From Silvanigrellaceae bacterium (GTDB taxonomy: Bacteria; Bdellovibrionota_B; Oligoflexia; Silvanigrellales; Silvanigrellaceae): 46,077 bases of DNA. How positions within the stretch are numbered: position 1 is the stretch's first letter; each line of letters opens with the position of its first letter. The position numbers are program-made. Below, one piece after another: positions 27,001 through 33,000 of the stretch. The stretch lies in the NCBI GenBank assembly GCA_049423385.1, contig JBMSQQ010000015.1:1-46077 (forward strand), read 5' to 3'.

Positions 27001-30000
27001 ATTTGGAAGAAGTGAAACACGACACCACGGCTTCTGCACCTATTCGCAGCGAAGGGATCCCAAGGGAGGCTCCATGCGTCAATTTTTCGGAATTGTATTG
27101 ATTTTCTGTCTGATTGCTTTTGTCAGTCCGCTTGCCGAAGGCAAAACCCCTTGCATCACCCGCCAGGAGCTGACGGCCCGTTCAACAGGAATTGTTCAGC
27201 GCTATCATGCTTCCAATGGGGACATTATTCGCAAGGGTGACCCTGTCATCGAATTTGACTCGCGGCTTTTGCGCGCCGGCTACAAGGAGGCGCAAGCTGC
27301 GGTCGACGCGGCCAAGGGGAATGAGGAACTTGCTGCGGACGCACTTCTGCGTCTTGAAAAACTGCAGGGCAGCGAAGCGGTGACCGCCCAGCAATTGGCC
27401 GAGGCAAAAATCCGGGTCAGCCAGGCTCGCGCTCTTCGGCGGCAGGCCGAAGCGGCAGCCGAGCGCGTCAAGGTTCAGCTGGATGACACCATGCTGCGGG
27501 CTGAGGTTGGCGGTCGGGTTCAAGGCCTGCCAACCATTCTTGGTATGGTTGTTCAGGTTGGTCAATCACTTGGCAGCATCGAAGTGGTTGGCGCAGGTTG
27601 CTCCGCTGTTGCTCCATCGAAAAACAACTAAGGAGCTTCGCGATGAATCTTGCGCGCTTCTCCGTCAAGCGGCCCGTGACTTCAGGAATTATCAGTCTCG
27701 CACTTTTTATTCTGGGTGTTTTTTATCTCATCAAGATGCCGGTTTCCTTGTATCCCGACGTCTCCATTCCGTTCATTTCCGTCACCGTTCCCTATCCGGG
27801 CGCATCTCCGGAGCAGATTGAATCCGCAATCGTGAAACCCATCGAAGCCGAAGTCGCAGGACTCAAGAAAATTTCGCGGGTGATTGGTGTTGCCCGGCCA
27901 GGCTACGGGCAGTTGATTCTCGGCTTCAAAATGTCTGCCGATGAGCAGGAAGCTGCCGATTCGGTGCGCGAAAAGGTGTCGATCGTCAAAGGTCGTTTTC
28001 CACAAGGTGCCAAAGAACCAATTGTCGCGAGAGTTGATGTCGGGGCCACGCCGATTCTGATTTACGGGGTCGAGACGCAAAAATCAGCCGAAGAAACGCA
28101 GCGCATTCTCGATGACGTTTTACTGCCTGAGCTTCGCCGCACCGAAGGTGTCAACGAGGCAAAAGTTCTGGGTATTGGCGACGAGAGGGTCCAGCTCACT
28201 CTGGATGCGCGCAAGCTCTCGGATCTTCGCGTTGCTCCTCTCGATATTTTCGAACAACTCTCTGCCAAGATGGCAGTCATACCCTGGGGCGAAGTCACCC
28301 AAGACAGCCAGGTGATGTCGGTTTCCCGTAGCCTTCTCCCAGCAGATCTCAAATATTGGGAAAGTCAACGTGTCACATTGCGTGATGGACGAACCGTCTT
28401 CCTGGCGGATGTTGGTGAGCTGAAAATTGTCCGCGACGAGACCGCTTCCAGCGTCTTCATCAACGGCAAGCGTGGACTGGGTTTGGTGATCACAAAGCGG
28501 GCCGATGCCAACACCGTCGGAAGTGTCAAAGCGGTCAAGAAAACTCTGTCCCGCATCACTCTCCCAGACAATGTCAAGCTGTTCAGCATCGTTGATCAGA
28601 GCTCATTCATCCAGGAAAACTCAAAAGAAGTCTGGATCGCACTTTTTGCGGGTGGTGCCTTTGCGGTTTTGATTATTTTGTTGTTTCTCACTGATATCCG
28701 CAGTGCACTTATTTCAGCTACGGCATTGCCAGTGAGTATCGCAGGCTCATTTATTTTCATGAGCTGGCTCGACTTCTCGGTCAACATGATGAGCCTTTTG
28801 GCGATGGCTTTGGCGATTGGACTTTTGATCGACGACGCCGTGGTGGTGCGCGAGGCGATTTACACTGAACTCGAACATGGAGCCACTCCGGCCGAGGCTG
28901 CGGTGAAGGGAACGGATCGTGTTGCCGCAGCCGTGATGGCGACCTCTTTGGCGGTCATCGCCGTGTTTCTTCCGGTGGCAGGCATGGAAGGAATGGTCGG
29001 GCAATTTTTCAAGCAGTTTGGCGTGACAATCTGCATTGCCGTTGCGATTTCGACTTGGGTTGCGTTTACGCTTGATCCGATGCTGTCGGCCTATTTCGCT
29101 GGCAAACCGCGTCCTTTTCAAGGTGCTTTTTGGGACAAATGGCGCTCGTGGCTTGTGCGCACCGAGCAGGTCATTTCTGGTTGGGCAGTGGCTTCTTTCA
29201 AGCGACCTGTCACGGTCTTGATTCTCGCGGTTGTGACATTGTTTGCAGCCACAGGCCTGAGTCTTTCCCGCGGCTCCGACTTTCTTGCGTTTGAAGACCG
29301 TGGCCAGTTCATCATCAACATCCGTGGAAAATCTGGTTCCACCCGTGAAAAAAGCGAGAAGCTTGCCGAGCAAACCCTTGAGAGAGTCAAAGACTTCGAG
29401 GGATTGCAGGAAGTTTTTGTCACCGTTGGTGAACGTGGCGACGAGACTCTTGTGCAGATGAGATTGGTTTTCAACGCCAAAACCAAGCGCAAAACAGGGC
29501 TCTTGCAGATGCAAAAAATGGCGCGTGAACGCTTGAAGGATATCGATGGCGAAGTGCTTGTGATGGATCCACCACCCATCGAAGGCATTGGTGGCGAGGC
29601 GCCATTGAGTGTCTACGTCTATGGAGAAAATCTCGCTGAAACACGCAAAGCTGCCGAGGATCTTCTTGCCAAAATCCGCGCTCTTCCTGGCGTGGGAAAT
29701 GCGAGGCTCGAGACGGCAGCATTCGCAAAAGGTTTGGATGTTTCTTTCAAACCACTGGACCTTGGTTTTGCAGGTTCGGCAACCCAGGCAGTGGAACTCA
29801 CTGGTCGGCTGGCGCTCACTGGCGTCGAGGCCGGATTCGTTGGCGACAAAAACACTCCTTTTGTTCTGCGCCTGGCCGACAAGGATCGCACGATCGAAAA
29901 TCTATGGAACAATATCTATGTGCCCAGCATGCGCGGGCCAATGGCGTTGAATCAATTTGCGGATCTGCAGGAATCGTATCGCCCGCGCGGCATCGATCGC

Positions 30001-33000
30001 GAACGTCGCTCGCGCAAGATGGTCATTTGGGGAACACTCGACCGCACGCGCACCTATGGGGTCGTGCTCGGTGAAGTTCAGAAACTTGTTGATGCGGTTC
30101 CTGCGCCATTTTCAGCTGAAATCCAAGGCGACAAGGAAGTCTTTGAAGAGATGGTGGGCAGTTTCACTCTGGCCATTGTCGGCAGTTTGTTTTTTATCTT
30201 CATCATCTTGGCTGCGCAGTTTGAAAACCTGTTGCGTCCGTTCGTGATTCTTTTGTCGCTTCCACTGGCAGTGATTGGTGGATTCGCCGCACTTTACGTC
30301 GCCGGGCATCAATTGGCCCTGGGCGCACTCATTGGAATGGTTTTCCTTATCGGACTCGCGGCCAAGAATGGAATCCTTCTTGTGGACGCTGTTGGTGTGA
30401 AGGAAAAAACGATGCCACTCTCAGACGCAGTTCGCGAGAGTGTGAAAGAGCGTTCGCGCGCGATTCTGATGACGTCCATTGCAATGATTTTCGGAATGAT
30501 TCCCACCGCGGTCATGCGTGGTGGAGGATCAGAATTCCGCTCGCCGATGGCACTGGCCATCATTGGCGGTGTGCTCTCGAGTACCTTCTTGTCGTTTTTT
30601 GTGGTTCCTGCAGTGTTTGGAATCATCGATCGCTTGCGATCGTCCAAAAGTAAAGCAACTTCTGCCGTTGGTGCCATTACCGCAGGGGTCATCCTGGTTG
30701 CGTTGGGTTGGAATCTTCTGGCGAGCGCAACAGCCAATGCGCAGACATCTTCGACATCCTTTGCGGGCGTTTCGGCCACCGATTCCAGTGCGGTGGGTCG
30801 AGAATCACTTGTTGCCCAGAAAGCCAATATGTCAGCGGTCCTGCGACTGATCAACGAACTGAAGAAAGATGGACCAGACGAGATCCAAATCGAAGGGGCG
30901 GATCATGCTGCAGCCCAGGCGTCGCGCTCTGCAATTGAGAGTGTGTTTGGCGGCGCGCGTCTTGAGTATGGCCAGGAATGGTTCAAGCCAGGCTATTCGC
31001 AATCGTTCACTCTTCCTCCACCACCTGTCGGACCAGGTGCGATCAAGACAGTGATTGTTCCCCAACAGCAGCGCGTTACCAGTGTTGGCTGGCAGATCCC
31101 TGTTCTGAACATCCAGGCGATTTACGGCTGGGTGATGAGAAATGCGTTGCGCGTGCAGGCTGATCGCATTCGTGAAGCACGCTTTGAATCGGGTACCCTG
31201 GGAGCTGCACAGCTTCTGTTGCAGACAGAACTGGCGGTGCAAACCGTACGGGTCAACAAGGGATTCGTCGAGATCAGCAAGGCTCGTGAGACTATTGTTC
31301 GTCAACGCCTTGCCGCAGGACTTTCGACCCGACTGGAACTCAATCAGGCAGAGGCAAGCACGCTTGCCGCAATCGCCCAGTGGGAACAAACCAAGGCGGA
31401 AGAACTCAAGGTGCGCCAACAGTTCCTGCAGCAGGTTGGCAAGAGTTTCCCGGACGACGGAGTTGGTGTTACGGCCTTCCCTTTCGTGGGTGAAAGACCA
31501 TTCCAGTCGACCGCTCTGGAAGCCATGAAGTCCGTGCACAATGCGCAAGTCAAAAGCACCGAACTGACGGATGCGGCATTTTATCCCACTCTCAGTGTAG
31601 AGCTCGGCTACTCAAACAAATCCTTCGACACCTCACCACCCGCGCAGAAATTTGCTGCGCTCAAGGCTCGTTGGGATATTCTCGATGGCGGTGGACGCTC
31701 TGCGATGCGTGGACGCAACATGCAGATGGCCAACGATTTGTTGGCCCAGGCAAGGCAGCTGGAAATTCAACTCCGGAGTTCCCACGAATCACTGAAAACG
31801 CGGCAAGAGGCTTTCCAGCGCGCCCGCAGTGCGGCGGAGTTTGGTCAAAAGGCGGCAGCTTCTGCTCAGCATCAGGCATTGCAGGCTTTTTCGGCTGGTT
31901 TGGCCCGTGCGGTGGACGTGCGTGCTGCCGATGAGGCAAAGCTGAAGGCGGATTTTGCCAAGTTGCAATTGGATTTCGCGTTGCAGGGTTTGGCACTCGA
32001 AAGTTTGGCTCTCACCAACAGCTGGAACAGTTTCATCCGTTCGAATGGTCAGCCGTAATATTTTCCAAACCTGTTCTTGAGAAACAATTCCAGCGGCACA
32101 TCTTCTTGTCGCACAAAGCCGCTTTTCGGTATTTTACCTTCGTGATGCAAGTCAAGAACCGCACAAATTCCAGCTGCGGTTGTGATCTGGATGGCTCCCC
32201 AGTGCTCACCATCAATGTCCTGGTGATAAATCTTGTGCGCGTAGCTTTCCTGACTCAACACGCCGTTGCGGTTGCCTTGAACAGTCACAATGATGATCAC
32301 AACATCCTGTTTGGTTGTGGGGATTGCCCGTTCAAAAATCTTGCGCAGGTTGTCCCTGTCCTGGTTGAGCTTCAAATCATTCATCAGCAGAGCGATGATG
32401 TCGCGGTGACCCGGATAGCGGACGCTCTTGTAGTCGAGTGATTTGGCTTTTCCCGCAAAAGTTTCGGCAAGTGTGCCCAAGCCGCCCGAGGTGTTGAACG
32501 CCTCGTATTCCAATCCATCGAGGCTGAATTTTTCGAGTCCTTCAAGCGGCTGAAGCAGTGTGAGTTTGCCGTTCACCACGGCTTCGCAGGGGTTGCCGTA
32601 TTCGTTGATGAGACCTTCGGTGCTCCAGGTCAGGTTGTACTTCATCGCGTTGTGCGGATATTTTGGCAGCGCACCCACGCGCATCTTGATGTGCTCGATG
32701 CTCTCGAAAGATTTTGCCAGGCCGTTGGCAACAATCGAGATGAATCCAGGAGCAAGTCCACACTGTGGGATGAATGCCAGTTTGGAATCCTCTGCCAACT
32801 TTCGTACTGCCTTTGTCGTGGCCACGTCTTCGGTCAGGTCGAGATAGTGCACTCCGGCTTTTTTTGCGGCGGTCGCGATTCCCACATTGCAGTGGTATGG
32901 AGCGCAGCTCACAACGTAACTGTGCCCTTCGAGAGCTTTCTCTACAGCGCCTGTGTCGTTGAGGTCCAATCCTAGGAATGATGTATTTTTGAGCATCTTG

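What a model noticed while it worked through the whole genome (the two positions that open the first line are those of the whole stretch)
27074..32058. One-gene RND pump plus outer-membrane channel, with a two-domain mini-adaptor
A single 1471-aa ORF encodes a full RND permease, an internal signal-peptide-like segment and a complete TolC-family channel. The gene just upstream encodes a 185-aa adaptor with only the lipoyl and hairpin domains. The two-gene operon is fixed in a small Silvanigrellaceae-like clade and replaces the usual three-gene layout.
Evidence so far: ACR_tran 4-995, E=1.2e-195; OEP on 1001-1471; junction sequence; TolC-like fold, Foldseek E about 1e-16; adaptor = AcrA 56-202. 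Junction open in 12 of 12 genus genomes plus 6 others of 101 searched; 18 clusters in 5.8e9 proteins; 17 loci in 185,579 species; mini-adaptor upstream in 16 of 16 loci and a discrete family of 12 representatives.
(Added by a program. Inside this text positions count along the whole contig: contig position 1 is position 1 of the stretch shown here. "Call 12" and the like, gene names such as g00115 and contig names such as C1 are that model's own, and its searches are not shown. The text may have been shortened before it was handed on; [...] marks where a part breaks off. The agent that wrote the report below was given it as the finding of a first reader that could run no searches.)

Follow-up and report, generated by a model that had tools for sequence, protein, structure and literature searches.

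The report
Fused efflux pump-channel gene with mini-adaptor
A freshwater bacterium encodes its inner-membrane efflux pump and its outer-membrane exit channel as one gene joined by a signal-peptide-like segment, and pairs it with an adaptor protein that lacks the two domains normally used to hold the pump.

Summary
ORF 27643-32058 (1471 aa) contains three parts:
- a full-length RND permease (ACR_tran 4-995, E 1.8e-195);
- a 13th hydrophobic segment built like a signal peptide, ending ANA|Q;
- a complete TolC-fold channel.

The upstream gene encodes a 185-aa adaptor with only the lipoyl and hairpin domains.

The junction is open in 20 of 131 genomes of the phylum, counting the window's own. These are 12 of 12 other genomes of its genus and 7 more. 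The mini-adaptor is upstream in 18 of 18 loci that hold upstream DNA.

- RND-channel fusion is not confined to this clade. I found at least four other fused lineages, so the tree needs at least 5 changes of state. One of them sits behind a full-length 376-aa adaptor. The mini-adaptor is therefore the clade-specific oddity.
- The junction looks like a channel precursor's own signal peptide. It has a basic n-region, a short h-region and an AXA-type site in 28 of 32 junctions, against 16 expected by shuffling. In some members the spacing to the channel is too short for a tether.

My best reading is a polyprotein cut by signal peptidase I. Cleavage, assembly and transport are all untested. Four literature searches found no description of either feature.

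The parts
27074..27631 (+). Mini-adaptor gene (185 aa): signal peptide, then half of a lipoyl domain, an alpha-hairpin (helices 64-97 and 105-137), and the second half of the lipoyl domain. There is no beta-barrel domain and no membrane-proximal domain. Cys27 and Cys176 flank the fold. R93-x3-L97-x6-T104 lies at the hairpin tip.
   Evidence: The two-Cys pattern is present in 15 of 15 locus copies and in 3 of 3 class-level copies. Among the 46 clusters, 46 have the N-terminal Cys and 45 the C-terminal Cys; the exception is a 143-aa fragment. The tip motif is present in 46 of 46.
27074..27142 (+). Signal peptide of the mini-adaptor (residues 1-23). Relatives end it with AXA-type sites (AQA|K, AVA|K, ALA|K). 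There is no lipobox before Cys27.
   Evidence: Alignment; the sequence itself. Cleavage is inferred.
27643..32058 (+). Fused RND-channel gene (1471 aa plus stop). AAGGAG lies 7 nt upstream of the ATG, and the gene starts 11 nt after the adaptor's stop.
27643..30633 (+). RND permease part (residues 1-997): 12 transmembrane helices and two periplasmic loops of about 288 aa each. D397, D398, K908 and R959 are invariant.
   Evidence: The match to solved HAE1-type pumps runs end to end, E 3.9e-91.
30634..30741 (+). Internal signal-peptide-like junction (residues 998-1033): basic n-region LRSSKSK, h-region ATSAVGAITAGVILVALGWNLLA, c-region SATANA, followed by Q1034.
   Evidence: No column is invariant between G993 and A1061.
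30742..32055 (+). Channel (outer membrane factor) part, residues 1034-1471: a low-confidence N-terminal stretch of about 21-26 residues, then a complete TolC-type protomer with 4 beta-strands. Invariant G1226-L1227 and G1419-L1420 lie in the two conserved AGL segments that I place at the helical turns.

Best explanation
This is a two-gene RND efflux system made as a polyprotein.

Origin. The fused gene probably arose from an adaptor-pump-channel operon when the pump's stop codon was lost. The C-terminus of an RND pump lies in the cytoplasm. The channel's own signal peptide, now internal, can therefore still insert N-in/C-out as a 13th membrane segment and carry the channel domain across the inner membrane.

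Biogenesis (inferred). Signal peptidase I then cuts after the AXA-type site, ANA|Q1034 in the window. This leaves a 13-helix pump in the inner membrane. It releases a non-lipidated, TolC-like protomer of about 47 kDa, which goes to the outer membrane and trimerises. The result is one channel protomer per pump protomer.

Adaptor (inferred). The 185-aa adaptor is exported and keeps only the lipoyl and hairpin domains. The conserved Cys27-Cys176 pair probably staples the two ends where the barrel domain would normally continue. Its hairpin tip keeps the R-x3-L-x6-S/T motif, and the channel keeps an invariant GL in each conserved AGL segment. I therefore expect it to form the hairpin and lipoyl collar that meets the channel tip.

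Shown versus inferred. The anatomy, its conservation and its linkage are shown. Cleavage, the disulfide, assembly, how the adaptor holds the pump, and the substrate are all inferred.
For: Anatomy.

Selection keeps the frame.
- There are 32 distinct junction sequences among 36 rows. Their length from the end of helix 12 to the first conserved channel residue runs from 38 to 94 residues, and every frame is open.
- A related strain has indels of net +3 and 0.

Signal-peptide features.
- All 32 n-regions hold 3-6 Lys/Arg and at most as many acidic residues; 30 of 32 are net positive.
- An [AVS]-x-A site follows the h-region in 28 of 32 junctions. Shuffles that keep composition give 16.0 +/- 2.6, and 0 of 2000 reach 28. 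The rows are related, so this is not a probability.
- The junction is the least conserved part of the protein, as signal peptides usually are.

No conserved internal start. An in-frame GTG or TTG with a Shine-Dalgarno-like site occurs in 2 of 17 genes, and an ATG in 1 of 17.

Geometry.
- In L019, L017 and P0021 only 11-14 residues separate the h-region from the first conserved channel helix.
- In the nine sequences I read from other fused lineages, the canonical channel N-terminal helix starts about 1-25 residues after the likeliest site, and within 2-5 residues in P0080, P0220, P0163 and P0225. That is the spacing of ordinary channel precursors.

Origin. The unfused relative L058 has TetR, a 386-aa adaptor, a 1030-aa RND and a 506-aa channel. 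The last two genes overlap by 4 nt, and the channel has its own signal peptide.

Adaptor.
- It lies upstream in 18 of 18 loci.
- Mean column identity is 65%, with 48 invariant columns.
- It forms a discrete family of 46 clusters, followed by a gap to E 8.6e-6.
- The Cys pair and the tip motif are conserved.
- Every full-length adaptor found in the own genome sits in its own transporter operon: C30 and C17 with RND pumps, C16 with an ABC/FtsX pair, C1 beside an uncharacterised 410-aa ORF and a channel gene.

Expression. An RNA-library run holds six short contigs on the adaptor and pump parts. This is weak, because DNA carry-over cannot be excluded.
Against: - There is no protein-level evidence for cleavage.
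- No dedicated signal-peptide predictor was available. My site rule is crude, and 4 of 32 junctions lack the strict motif.
- Within the window's clade, most members carry 22-44 residues between the h-region and the first conserved channel helix. That is longer than in other fused lineages. If fully extended, it might just reach a channel docked directly on the pump, so a tether is not excluded for them.
- The missing beta-barrel and membrane-proximal domains are the ones that contact the pump in solved complexes (review passages). How this adaptor would hold the pump is unexplained.
- The same review reports that a hairpin-only fragment of MtrC could not open MtrE.
- The Cys residues lie in low-confidence parts of the model, so the disulfide is only a guess.
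- The genome is 90.6% complete, so an unseen adaptor cannot be excluded.
Confidence: 0.6

Rival explanations
1. Single-chain tethered machine. The 13th segment is a stable membrane anchor that is not cut. The channel domain stays covalently tied to the pump. The tie replaces the pump-holding domains that the adaptor has lost.
For: - The mini-adaptor and a long, low-complexity linker (22-44 residues in most members) occur together in this clade.
- The one other fused lineage with known context has a full-length adaptor. Other fused lineages mostly have short spacings after the site.
- Some uncharged stretches are long enough for a helix, at 19-26 residues.
Against: - L017, L019 and P0021 have only 11-14 residues after the h-region, yet L017 and L019 keep the mini-adaptor. 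P0021's context is unknown.
- Such a span cannot reach the N-terminus of a TolC-type protomer, which lies in the equatorial belt far from the inner membrane. This geometry is recalled from solved TolC and OprM structures and was not measured here.
- AXA-type sites are enriched, which an anchor would not need.
Confidence: 0.15
2. The 185-aa protein is not the bridging adaptor. It is an accessory, for example a gate-opener or chaperone for the channel tip. Either the pump and channel dock directly, or a full-length adaptor from another operon serves in trans.
For: - It lacks the domains that bind RND pumps in solved complexes (review passages).
- The same genome encodes four full-length adaptors.
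Against: - The four full-length adaptors sit in their own operons, with two RND pumps, one ABC/FtsX pair and one channel-linked locus.
- The 185-aa gene is tightly coupled to the fused gene in 18 of 18 loci, with gaps of about 11-62 nt or an overlap.
- It keeps the tip motif.
Confidence: 0.15
3. Two proteins from two starts. The channel is translated separately from an internal start codon, and the fused frame is incidental.
For: A few relatives have a Met in or near the junction. The window has an in-frame TTG at codon 998.
Against: - No start codon is conserved at the junction.
- A Shine-Dalgarno-like site precedes an in-frame GTG or TTG in 2 of 17 genes. An ATG is present in 1 of 17.
- The frame is kept through many length changes.
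Confidence: 0.05
4. Artefact or decaying genes. The fusion is a frameshift error, and the short adaptor is a truncated pseudogene.
For: The window comes from a draft genome of 183 contigs.
Against: - The same open junction is present in 19 other genomes at 41-93% identity.
- It is also present in independent public runs without gaps.
- The adaptor has 48 invariant columns and is found in 46 clusters of constant length.
Confidence: 0.02

Closest known systems
AcrAB-TolC and MexAB-OprM type tripartite RND pumps
   Same: The same three functional parts are present. The pump aligns end to end with solved HAE1-type pumps and keeps the acidic pair and the Lys/Arg of the proton relay. The channel has the TolC fold. 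The adaptor's lipoyl and hairpin domains superpose on AcrA at rmsd 2.1 A.
   Different: Pump and channel are one reading frame joined by an internal signal-peptide-like segment. The adaptor lacks the beta-barrel and membrane-proximal domains and has no lipid or helix anchor.
Other natural RND-channel fusions found here (P0080/P0218-P0222; P0084/L050/L060; P0163; P0223/P0225)
   Same: They are ACR_tran plus OEP in one protein of about 1470-1530 aa. Each has a basic stretch, a hydrophobic stretch and a small-residue site before the channel.
   Different: They are separate lineages on the RND tree. L050 and L060 have a full-length 376-aa adaptor and a TetR gene upstream. Their channels score much higher against Pfam OEP (118-158 bits against 44). 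In most of them the spacing after the site is only a few residues.
BesA of Borrelia burgdorferi and EmrA (adaptors that lack one domain)
   Same: They are natural adaptors with a reduced domain set: BesA lacks the hairpin and EmrA lacks the membrane-proximal domain (review passages).
   Different: Here the loss is the opposite of BesA and goes further than EmrA. Both pump-facing domains are gone and only the channel-facing half remains. I found no such adaptor in the passages read.
Cytochrome b/c1 precursor (FbcH) of Bradyrhizobium japonicum
   Same: The principle is the same: one ORF, an internal signal peptide after a polytopic membrane protein, and cleavage that yields two mature proteins.
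   Different: It is an unrelated protein family. This comparison is recalled from memory. My library search for it found nothing, so it is a lead and not a checked citation.
Engineered adaptor fusions used for AcrABZ-TolC cryo-EM
   Same: Covalent linkage of pump components through a membrane segment is tolerated. A figure legend in the review read mentions AcrA fused to AcrZ.
   Different: Those fusions are artificial, they link the adaptor rather than the channel, and they are not meant to be cleaved.

Membership tests
RND permease, HAE1-like (Pfam PF00873 ACR_tran) | Full-length match to the family profile | tested here: met
   Residues 4-995 match profile positions 2-1020 of 1021, E 1.8e-195. 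The match to solved pumps runs end to end, E 3.9e-91. All NCBIfam subfamily scores are below their cut-offs, so no subfamily is assigned.
RND permease, HAE1-like (Pfam PF00873 ACR_tran) | 12 transmembrane helices with two large periplasmic loops | tested here: met
   The hydropathy scan shows helix 1, helices 2-6, helix 7 and helices 8-12, with loops at about 40-327 and 546-833. It also shows one extra, 13th segment.
RND permease, HAE1-like (Pfam PF00873 ACR_tran) | Proton-relay residues (acidic pair in helix 4, Lys in helix 10, Arg in helix 11) | tested here: met
   D397, D398, K908 and R959 are invariant in 15 sequences. The DD pair aligns with the DD of a solved pump. The mapping of Lys and Arg to their helices rests on recalled AcrB numbering.
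Outer membrane factor / TolC family (Pfam PF02321 OEP) | Two OEP repeats | tested here: met
   Two stretches were found, at 30961-31419 and 31564-31971. The scores are weak, at 44-49 bits for the whole protein.
Outer membrane factor / TolC family (Pfam PF02321 OEP) | TolC protomer fold: four beta-strands and long paired helices | tested here: met
   The AlphaFold2 model has pLDDT 80.1 and strands at 71-80, 109-122, 283-294 and 302-310. Foldseek gives E 2.5e-17 to 1e-13 and TM 0.6-0.7 against TolC, CmeC, VceC, CusC and OprM.
Outer membrane factor / TolC family (Pfam PF02321 OEP) | N-terminal export signal and trimeric outer-membrane assembly | not testable with these tools
   A signal-like segment is present, but it is internal. 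Export, cleavage and trimerisation were not tested.
Periplasmic adaptor / membrane fusion protein of RND pumps (TIGR01730) | Four domains: membrane-proximal, beta-barrel, lipoyl, alpha-hairpin | tested here: not met
   Only profile positions 19-166 of 322 are matched, at 88.4 bits, below the 94.9 cut-off. The model has only lipoyl strands and a hairpin. The structural match covers about 144 of about 340-400 AcrA residues. It works like half of an adaptor and is not a full member.
Periplasmic adaptor / membrane fusion protein of RND pumps (TIGR01730) | Inner-membrane anchor (lipobox Cys or an N-terminal helix that is kept) | tested here: not met
   No lipobox precedes Cys27; the residues before it are K-T-P. 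Relatives have AXA-type sites 3-4 residues before the Cys. An uncleaved signal anchor cannot be excluded.
Periplasmic adaptor / membrane fusion protein of RND pumps (TIGR01730) | Hairpin-tip R-x3-L-x6-S motif that meets the channel tip (motif recalled from the literature) | tested here: met
   The window has R93, L97 and T104. The pattern R-x3-[LVIM]-x6-[ST] is present in 46 of 46 clusters.
Signal peptidase I substrate (cleavable signal peptide) | Basic n-region, hydrophobic h-region, small residues at -3 and -1 | tested here: inconclusive
   The pattern is present in 28 of 32 junctions, against 16.0 +/- 2.6 in shuffles. I used my own simple rule, no trained predictor was available, and cleavage itself cannot be tested here.

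The most novel reading that the evidence does not exclude
The clade has a truly minimal adaptor. A soluble lipoyl-hairpin module, stapled by a disulfide, builds the periplasmic duct without touching the pump through the usual domains. Either the lipoyl ring sits directly on the pump's crown, or the pump and channel dock on each other. Making the channel as a polyprotein, or in the boldest version keeping it tethered, delivers it next to its pump and makes up for the lost pump-binding domains. That would be a new assembly logic for tripartite pumps. It would also be a natural experiment on the tip-to-tip versus direct-docking question.
Probability: 0.3. Interest if true: 0.85.

Novelty: new variant of a known kind. 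Interest (0 to 1): 0.65.

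Why it matters
Current models of tripartite efflux pumps give the adaptor's beta-barrel and membrane-proximal domains two jobs: gripping the pump and passing on its movements. Here a conserved system lacks both domains, and no spare full-length adaptor was found in the window's own genome. It is therefore a natural test of what the adaptor minimally has to do, and of whether pump and channel can meet more directly.

RND-channel fusion through an intact internal signal peptide has arisen repeatedly, in at least five lineages. That gives a simple, checkable example of polyprotein biogenesis across two membranes. It also suggests one possible route to matched subunit numbers, but this is my inference.

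For genome annotation, these proteins of 1450-1530 aa are currently named as plain RND pumps in the source names I saw. Their channel half is easily missed.

Tried and rejected
- Complex prediction. I submitted the pump's residues 1-835 with the mature adaptor. The job gave no verdict (score 0.00), which says nothing for or against binding.
- Promoter and terminator scan of 26800-32400. It found no more sites than shuffled sequence gives.
- Compensating domain in the pump. The pump is about 30 residues shorter than solved pumps and I saw no large insertion. No conserved periplasmic Cys exists in the fused protein that could pair with the adaptor's Cys. The only conserved one, C464, lies in a membrane helix.
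- A split-off gene holding only the beta-barrel and membrane-proximal domains. TIGR01730 and HlyD_3 scans of the own genome found none.
- P0069 (433 aa) looked like a free channel of this clade. Its start is identical to an internal Met of the G014 fused protein, so I treat it as a fragment.
- P0076 (1002 aa) is the nearest apparently unfused pump. It ends exactly at helix 12 and may itself be a truncated record.
- Other fused families inside the phylum. I scanned 131 genomes with Pfam OEP at E <= 1e-18. None of the 150 listed matches lies in an open frame above 665 aa, but 276 matches were not listed.
- Literature. Four searches for natural RND-channel fusions found nothing relevant. A search for the recalled cytochrome b/c1 precedent also found nothing.
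- The RNA-library contigs do not cover the junction or the channel part. I draw no conclusion from that.

Full report
**What is in the window**

Two co-directional genes sit 11 nt apart.
- The first is 27074-27631 and encodes 185 aa.
- The second is 27643-32058 and encodes 1471 aa. Its ATG lies 7 nt behind an AAGGAG site, and a longer TTG frame starts at 27598.

The long protein has three parts.
- Pfam places ACR_tran on residues 4-995 (E 1.8e-195) and OEP in the C-terminal third.
- When the C-terminal 471 residues are scanned alone, OEP scores E 1e-12 in two stretches.
- A whole-genome scan finds both repeats, at 30961-31419 and 31564-31971, in one open frame.
- Hydropathy shows the usual 12 RND helices and a 13th hydrophobic segment at 1003-1032. 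It is preceded by LRSSKSK and followed by ANA|Q1034.

The pump part aligns end to end with solved HAE1-type pumps (E 3.9e-91). D397, D398, K908 and R959 are invariant among 15 relatives.

An AlphaFold2 model of residues 1034-1471 was built from a 16-row alignment and has pLDDT 80.1. It shows the helix-strand-strand-long-helix order twice, with four strands in all. It matches TolC, CmeC, VceC, CusC and OprM at Foldseek E 2.5e-17 to 1e-13 over nearly its whole length.

**The short protein**

It matches the RND adaptor model TIGR01730 only over profile positions 19-166 of 322, at 88.4 bits, below the 94.9 cut-off. It matches the AcrA model over positions 58-200.

Its model (pLDDT 79.5) is a lipoyl half, a hairpin with helices 64-97 and 105-137, and a second lipoyl half. 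It superposes on AcrA at rmsd 2.1 A over 144 columns.

There is no beta-barrel domain, no membrane-proximal domain and no lipobox.

**Is the fusion real and under selection?**

I searched with a 300-residue query that spans the last 100 pump residues, the junction and the first 165 channel residues.
- In the family (33 genomes), 17 genomes counting the window's own have an uninterrupted match. These are 12 of 12 others in its genus and 4 in three other genera. None of the 13 genomes of genus g8 has it.
- In the phylum (131 genomes), 20 have it. The three additions lie in two other families of the same class.
- Record titles of the matching loci name Silvanigrellaceae, Silvanigrellales, Silvanigrella and Oligoflexia genomes assembled from metagenomes.
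- In the 5.8-billion-protein collection, the channel part finds 19 clusters of 1454-1498 aa. Only the 7998 candidates sharing most words were scored.
- A public DNA run from a study other than the likely source holds one 38,961-nt contig covering 27000-32100 with 24 substitutions and no gap. A more distant strain shows indels of net +3 and 0.

An artefact is excluded.

**The junction**

Among 36 aligned proteins there are 32 distinct junctions. Their length from the end of helix 12 to the first conserved channel residue varies from 38 to 94 residues, and the frame is always kept. No column is invariant between G993 and A1061, while both flanks are dense with invariant columns.

Each junction has the same build.
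- All 32 n-regions hold 3-6 Lys/Arg and at most as many acidic residues; 30 of 32 are net positive.
- An uncharged hydrophobic stretch follows.
- In 28 of 32, an [AVS]-x-A site follows that stretch. Examples are ANA|Q, ARA|Q, SRA|Q, SFA|Q, AHA|A and AWA|T.
- Shuffling the tails gives 16.0 +/- 2.6, and 0 of 2000 shuffles reach 28. The rows are relatives, so this is an indication and not a probability.

A separate internal start is not conserved. An in-frame GTG or TTG with a Shine-Dalgarno-like site occurs in 2 of 17 genes, and an ATG in 1 of 17.

**The fusion is not unique to this clade**

- The ESM Atlas lists 30 look-alike clusters of at least 50 members, of about 1436-1477 aa. Most carry both ACR_tran and OEP, and one has 348 members. 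These are leads only.
- A profile of the junction and channel was searched against 1.84 billion representatives. Besides clade members it returned P0080 (1498 aa), P0084 (1523 aa) and P0163 (1474 aa). All three are ACR_tran plus OEP by Pfam.
- P0080 has five further fused relatives, and P0223-P0226 form another group.
- A tree of 44 pump parts (23 fused, 20 unfused, 1 other) needs at least 5 changes of the fused state, forced by well-supported branches. The window's clade is one supported group of 12. This was a quick search, midpoint-rooted, with some long branches. Some 'unfused' rows are database proteins whose completeness I could not check.

In the nine sequences I read from these other lineages, the pump is followed by a basic stretch, a hydrophobic stretch and a small-residue site. 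The canonical channel N-terminal helix starts about 1-25 residues after the likeliest site, and within 2-5 residues in P0080, P0220, P0163 and P0225. That is what an ordinary channel precursor looks like.

An unfused relative, L058, shows a plausible starting point. It has TetR, a 386-aa adaptor, a 1030-aa pump and a 506-aa channel with its own signal peptide, and the last two genes overlap by 4 nt.

**Mechanism of the fusion**

An RND pump ends in the cytoplasm. A channel precursor fused behind it therefore keeps the correct orientation for its signal peptide.

The enriched AXA-type sites and the fast-evolving junction point to cleavage by signal peptidase I. So does the short spacing: a few residues in several other lineages, and 11-14 residues after the h-region in L017, L019 and P0021. 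The outcome would be two mature proteins.

A span of 11-14 residues cannot reach the N-terminus of a TolC-type protomer in the outer membrane. That geometry is recalled from solved structures and was not measured here.

I put cleavage at about 0.7. It is inferred, and nothing here tests it.

The main reservation is that most members of the window's own clade carry 22-44 residues after the h-region, part of it conserved (G-R-x-S-L). For them a tether is not strictly excluded.

**The mini-adaptor is the clade-specific feature**
- An ORF of 181-206 aa lies directly upstream of the fused gene in 14 of 14 family loci that hold upstream DNA. Two further loci are cut by contig ends.
- The same holds in 3 of 3 class-level loci, where one ORF call is longer.
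- Counting the window, that makes 18 of 18.
- It is well conserved, with 65% mean column identity and 48 invariant columns.
- It forms a discrete family of 46 clusters of 143-206 aa at 48% identity or more. The next hit is a 307-aa protein at E 8.6e-6.
- By contrast, the fused genes of L050 and L060 follow a full-length 376-aa adaptor whose barrel region is present (HlyD_D23 64-287, HlyD_3). Fusion does not require a short adaptor. I obtained gene context for only this one other lineage.

- A Cys lies 3-4 residues after the predicted signal cleavage site, and a second Cys lies near the C-terminus. Among the 46 clusters, 46 have the first and 45 the second; the exception is a truncated 143-aa record. 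They are also conserved in all 18 locus copies. The two ends of a lipoyl domain lie side by side where the barrel domain would continue, so I suggest a stapling disulfide. The model is of low confidence there.
- The hairpin tip keeps R-x3-[LVIM]-x6-[ST] in 46 of 46 clusters. The channel keeps an invariant G-L in each of its two conserved AGL segments (G1226-L1227 and G1419-L1420), which I place at the helical turns. The meaning of these motifs as the tip-to-tip contact is recalled from the literature.

**No other adaptor is free to serve the fused pump**

The own genome is 90.6% complete. It has three RND pumps, two of them in ordinary channel-adaptor-pump operons with adaptors of 352 and 359 aa. 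It has four full-length adaptors, each inside its own operon: two with RND pumps, one with an ABC/FtsX pair, and one beside an uncharacterised 410-aa ORF and a channel gene. I found no gene that holds only the missing domains. I saw no compensating insertion in the pump. The fused protein has no conserved periplasmic Cys.

How the mini-adaptor engages the pump is therefore open. A complex prediction gave no verdict and is not used as evidence.

**What is known**

In the passages I read from three reviews, the reduced adaptors described are BesA (no hairpin) and EmrA (no membrane-proximal domain). Fused dimeric adaptors are also mentioned, and a hairpin-only fragment of MtrC is reported not to open MtrE. 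I read passages only, not the whole texts or the supplements.

Four full-text searches for natural RND-channel fusions returned nothing relevant. Source annotations call these proteins plain RND pumps, or 'AcrB/outer membrane protein TolC'.

The cytochrome b/c1 polyprotein of Bradyrhizobium is a recalled precedent for internal signal-peptide cleavage. My search did not find it.

**Expression**

One RNA-library run holds six contigs of 151-228 nt on the adaptor and pump parts, with 0-9 mismatches. This is weak, because DNA carry-over is possible and the junction is not covered.

**Verdict**

The fused gene is best read as a recurrent polyprotein variant of an ordinary adaptor-pump-channel operon. 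The two-domain adaptor, conserved across a class-level clade and always linked to the fused gene, is the unusual element. Overall this is a new variant of a known kind.

Noticed in passing
window 25549-26961 (-) and 24944-25546 (-): A 470-aa secreted protein with no Pfam or NCBIfam match, followed by a 200-aa PilZ-domain protein, is transcribed divergently from the operon. The same pair lies upstream in 14 of 14 family-level loci, but not in L046 or L047. The ESM Atlas look-alikes are outer-membrane beta-barrel clusters, which is a lead only.
   Followed up: partly
window 32049-33209 (-) and 33185-34687 (+): A saccharopine-dehydrogenase-like gene converges on the fused gene and overlaps its end by 10 nt. 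An arginine-deiminase-family gene follows. The 366-aa dehydrogenase-like ORF recurs next to the fused gene in most loci of the genus.
   Followed up: no
P0173 (1371 aa): This is an RND pump with a C-terminal extension of about 350 aa that is not a channel (no OEP hit). Other kinds of C-terminal fusion to RND pumps therefore exist.
   Followed up: no
L046:7124-7798 (-), genome G068: A TetR-family regulator lies directly upstream of the mini-adaptor in this class-level relative. L050, L060 and L058 also have a TetR gene upstream. The window's own locus has no regulator next to it.
   Followed up: partly
G000 contigs C30 and C17 (L061, L062): The genome's two ordinary RND operons have the gene order channel-adaptor-pump. 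The fused locus and its unfused relatives L044 and L058 have adaptor-pump-channel. On the tree, the two ordinary pumps lie far from the fused one.
   Followed up: partly
window 27812-29068, run X8: One contig of a 90-95% similar organism replaces 1255 nt of the pump's first periplasmic loop with 1264 other letters. The matching flanks are only 25 nt, so this may be another organism or a chimeric contig.
   Followed up: no
window 23473-25002 (-): A 509-aa protein of the cytosolic 5'-nucleotidase family (PF05761, E 6.2e-166) lies here. I recall this family as mostly eukaryotic, but I did not check its taxonomic range.
   Followed up: no
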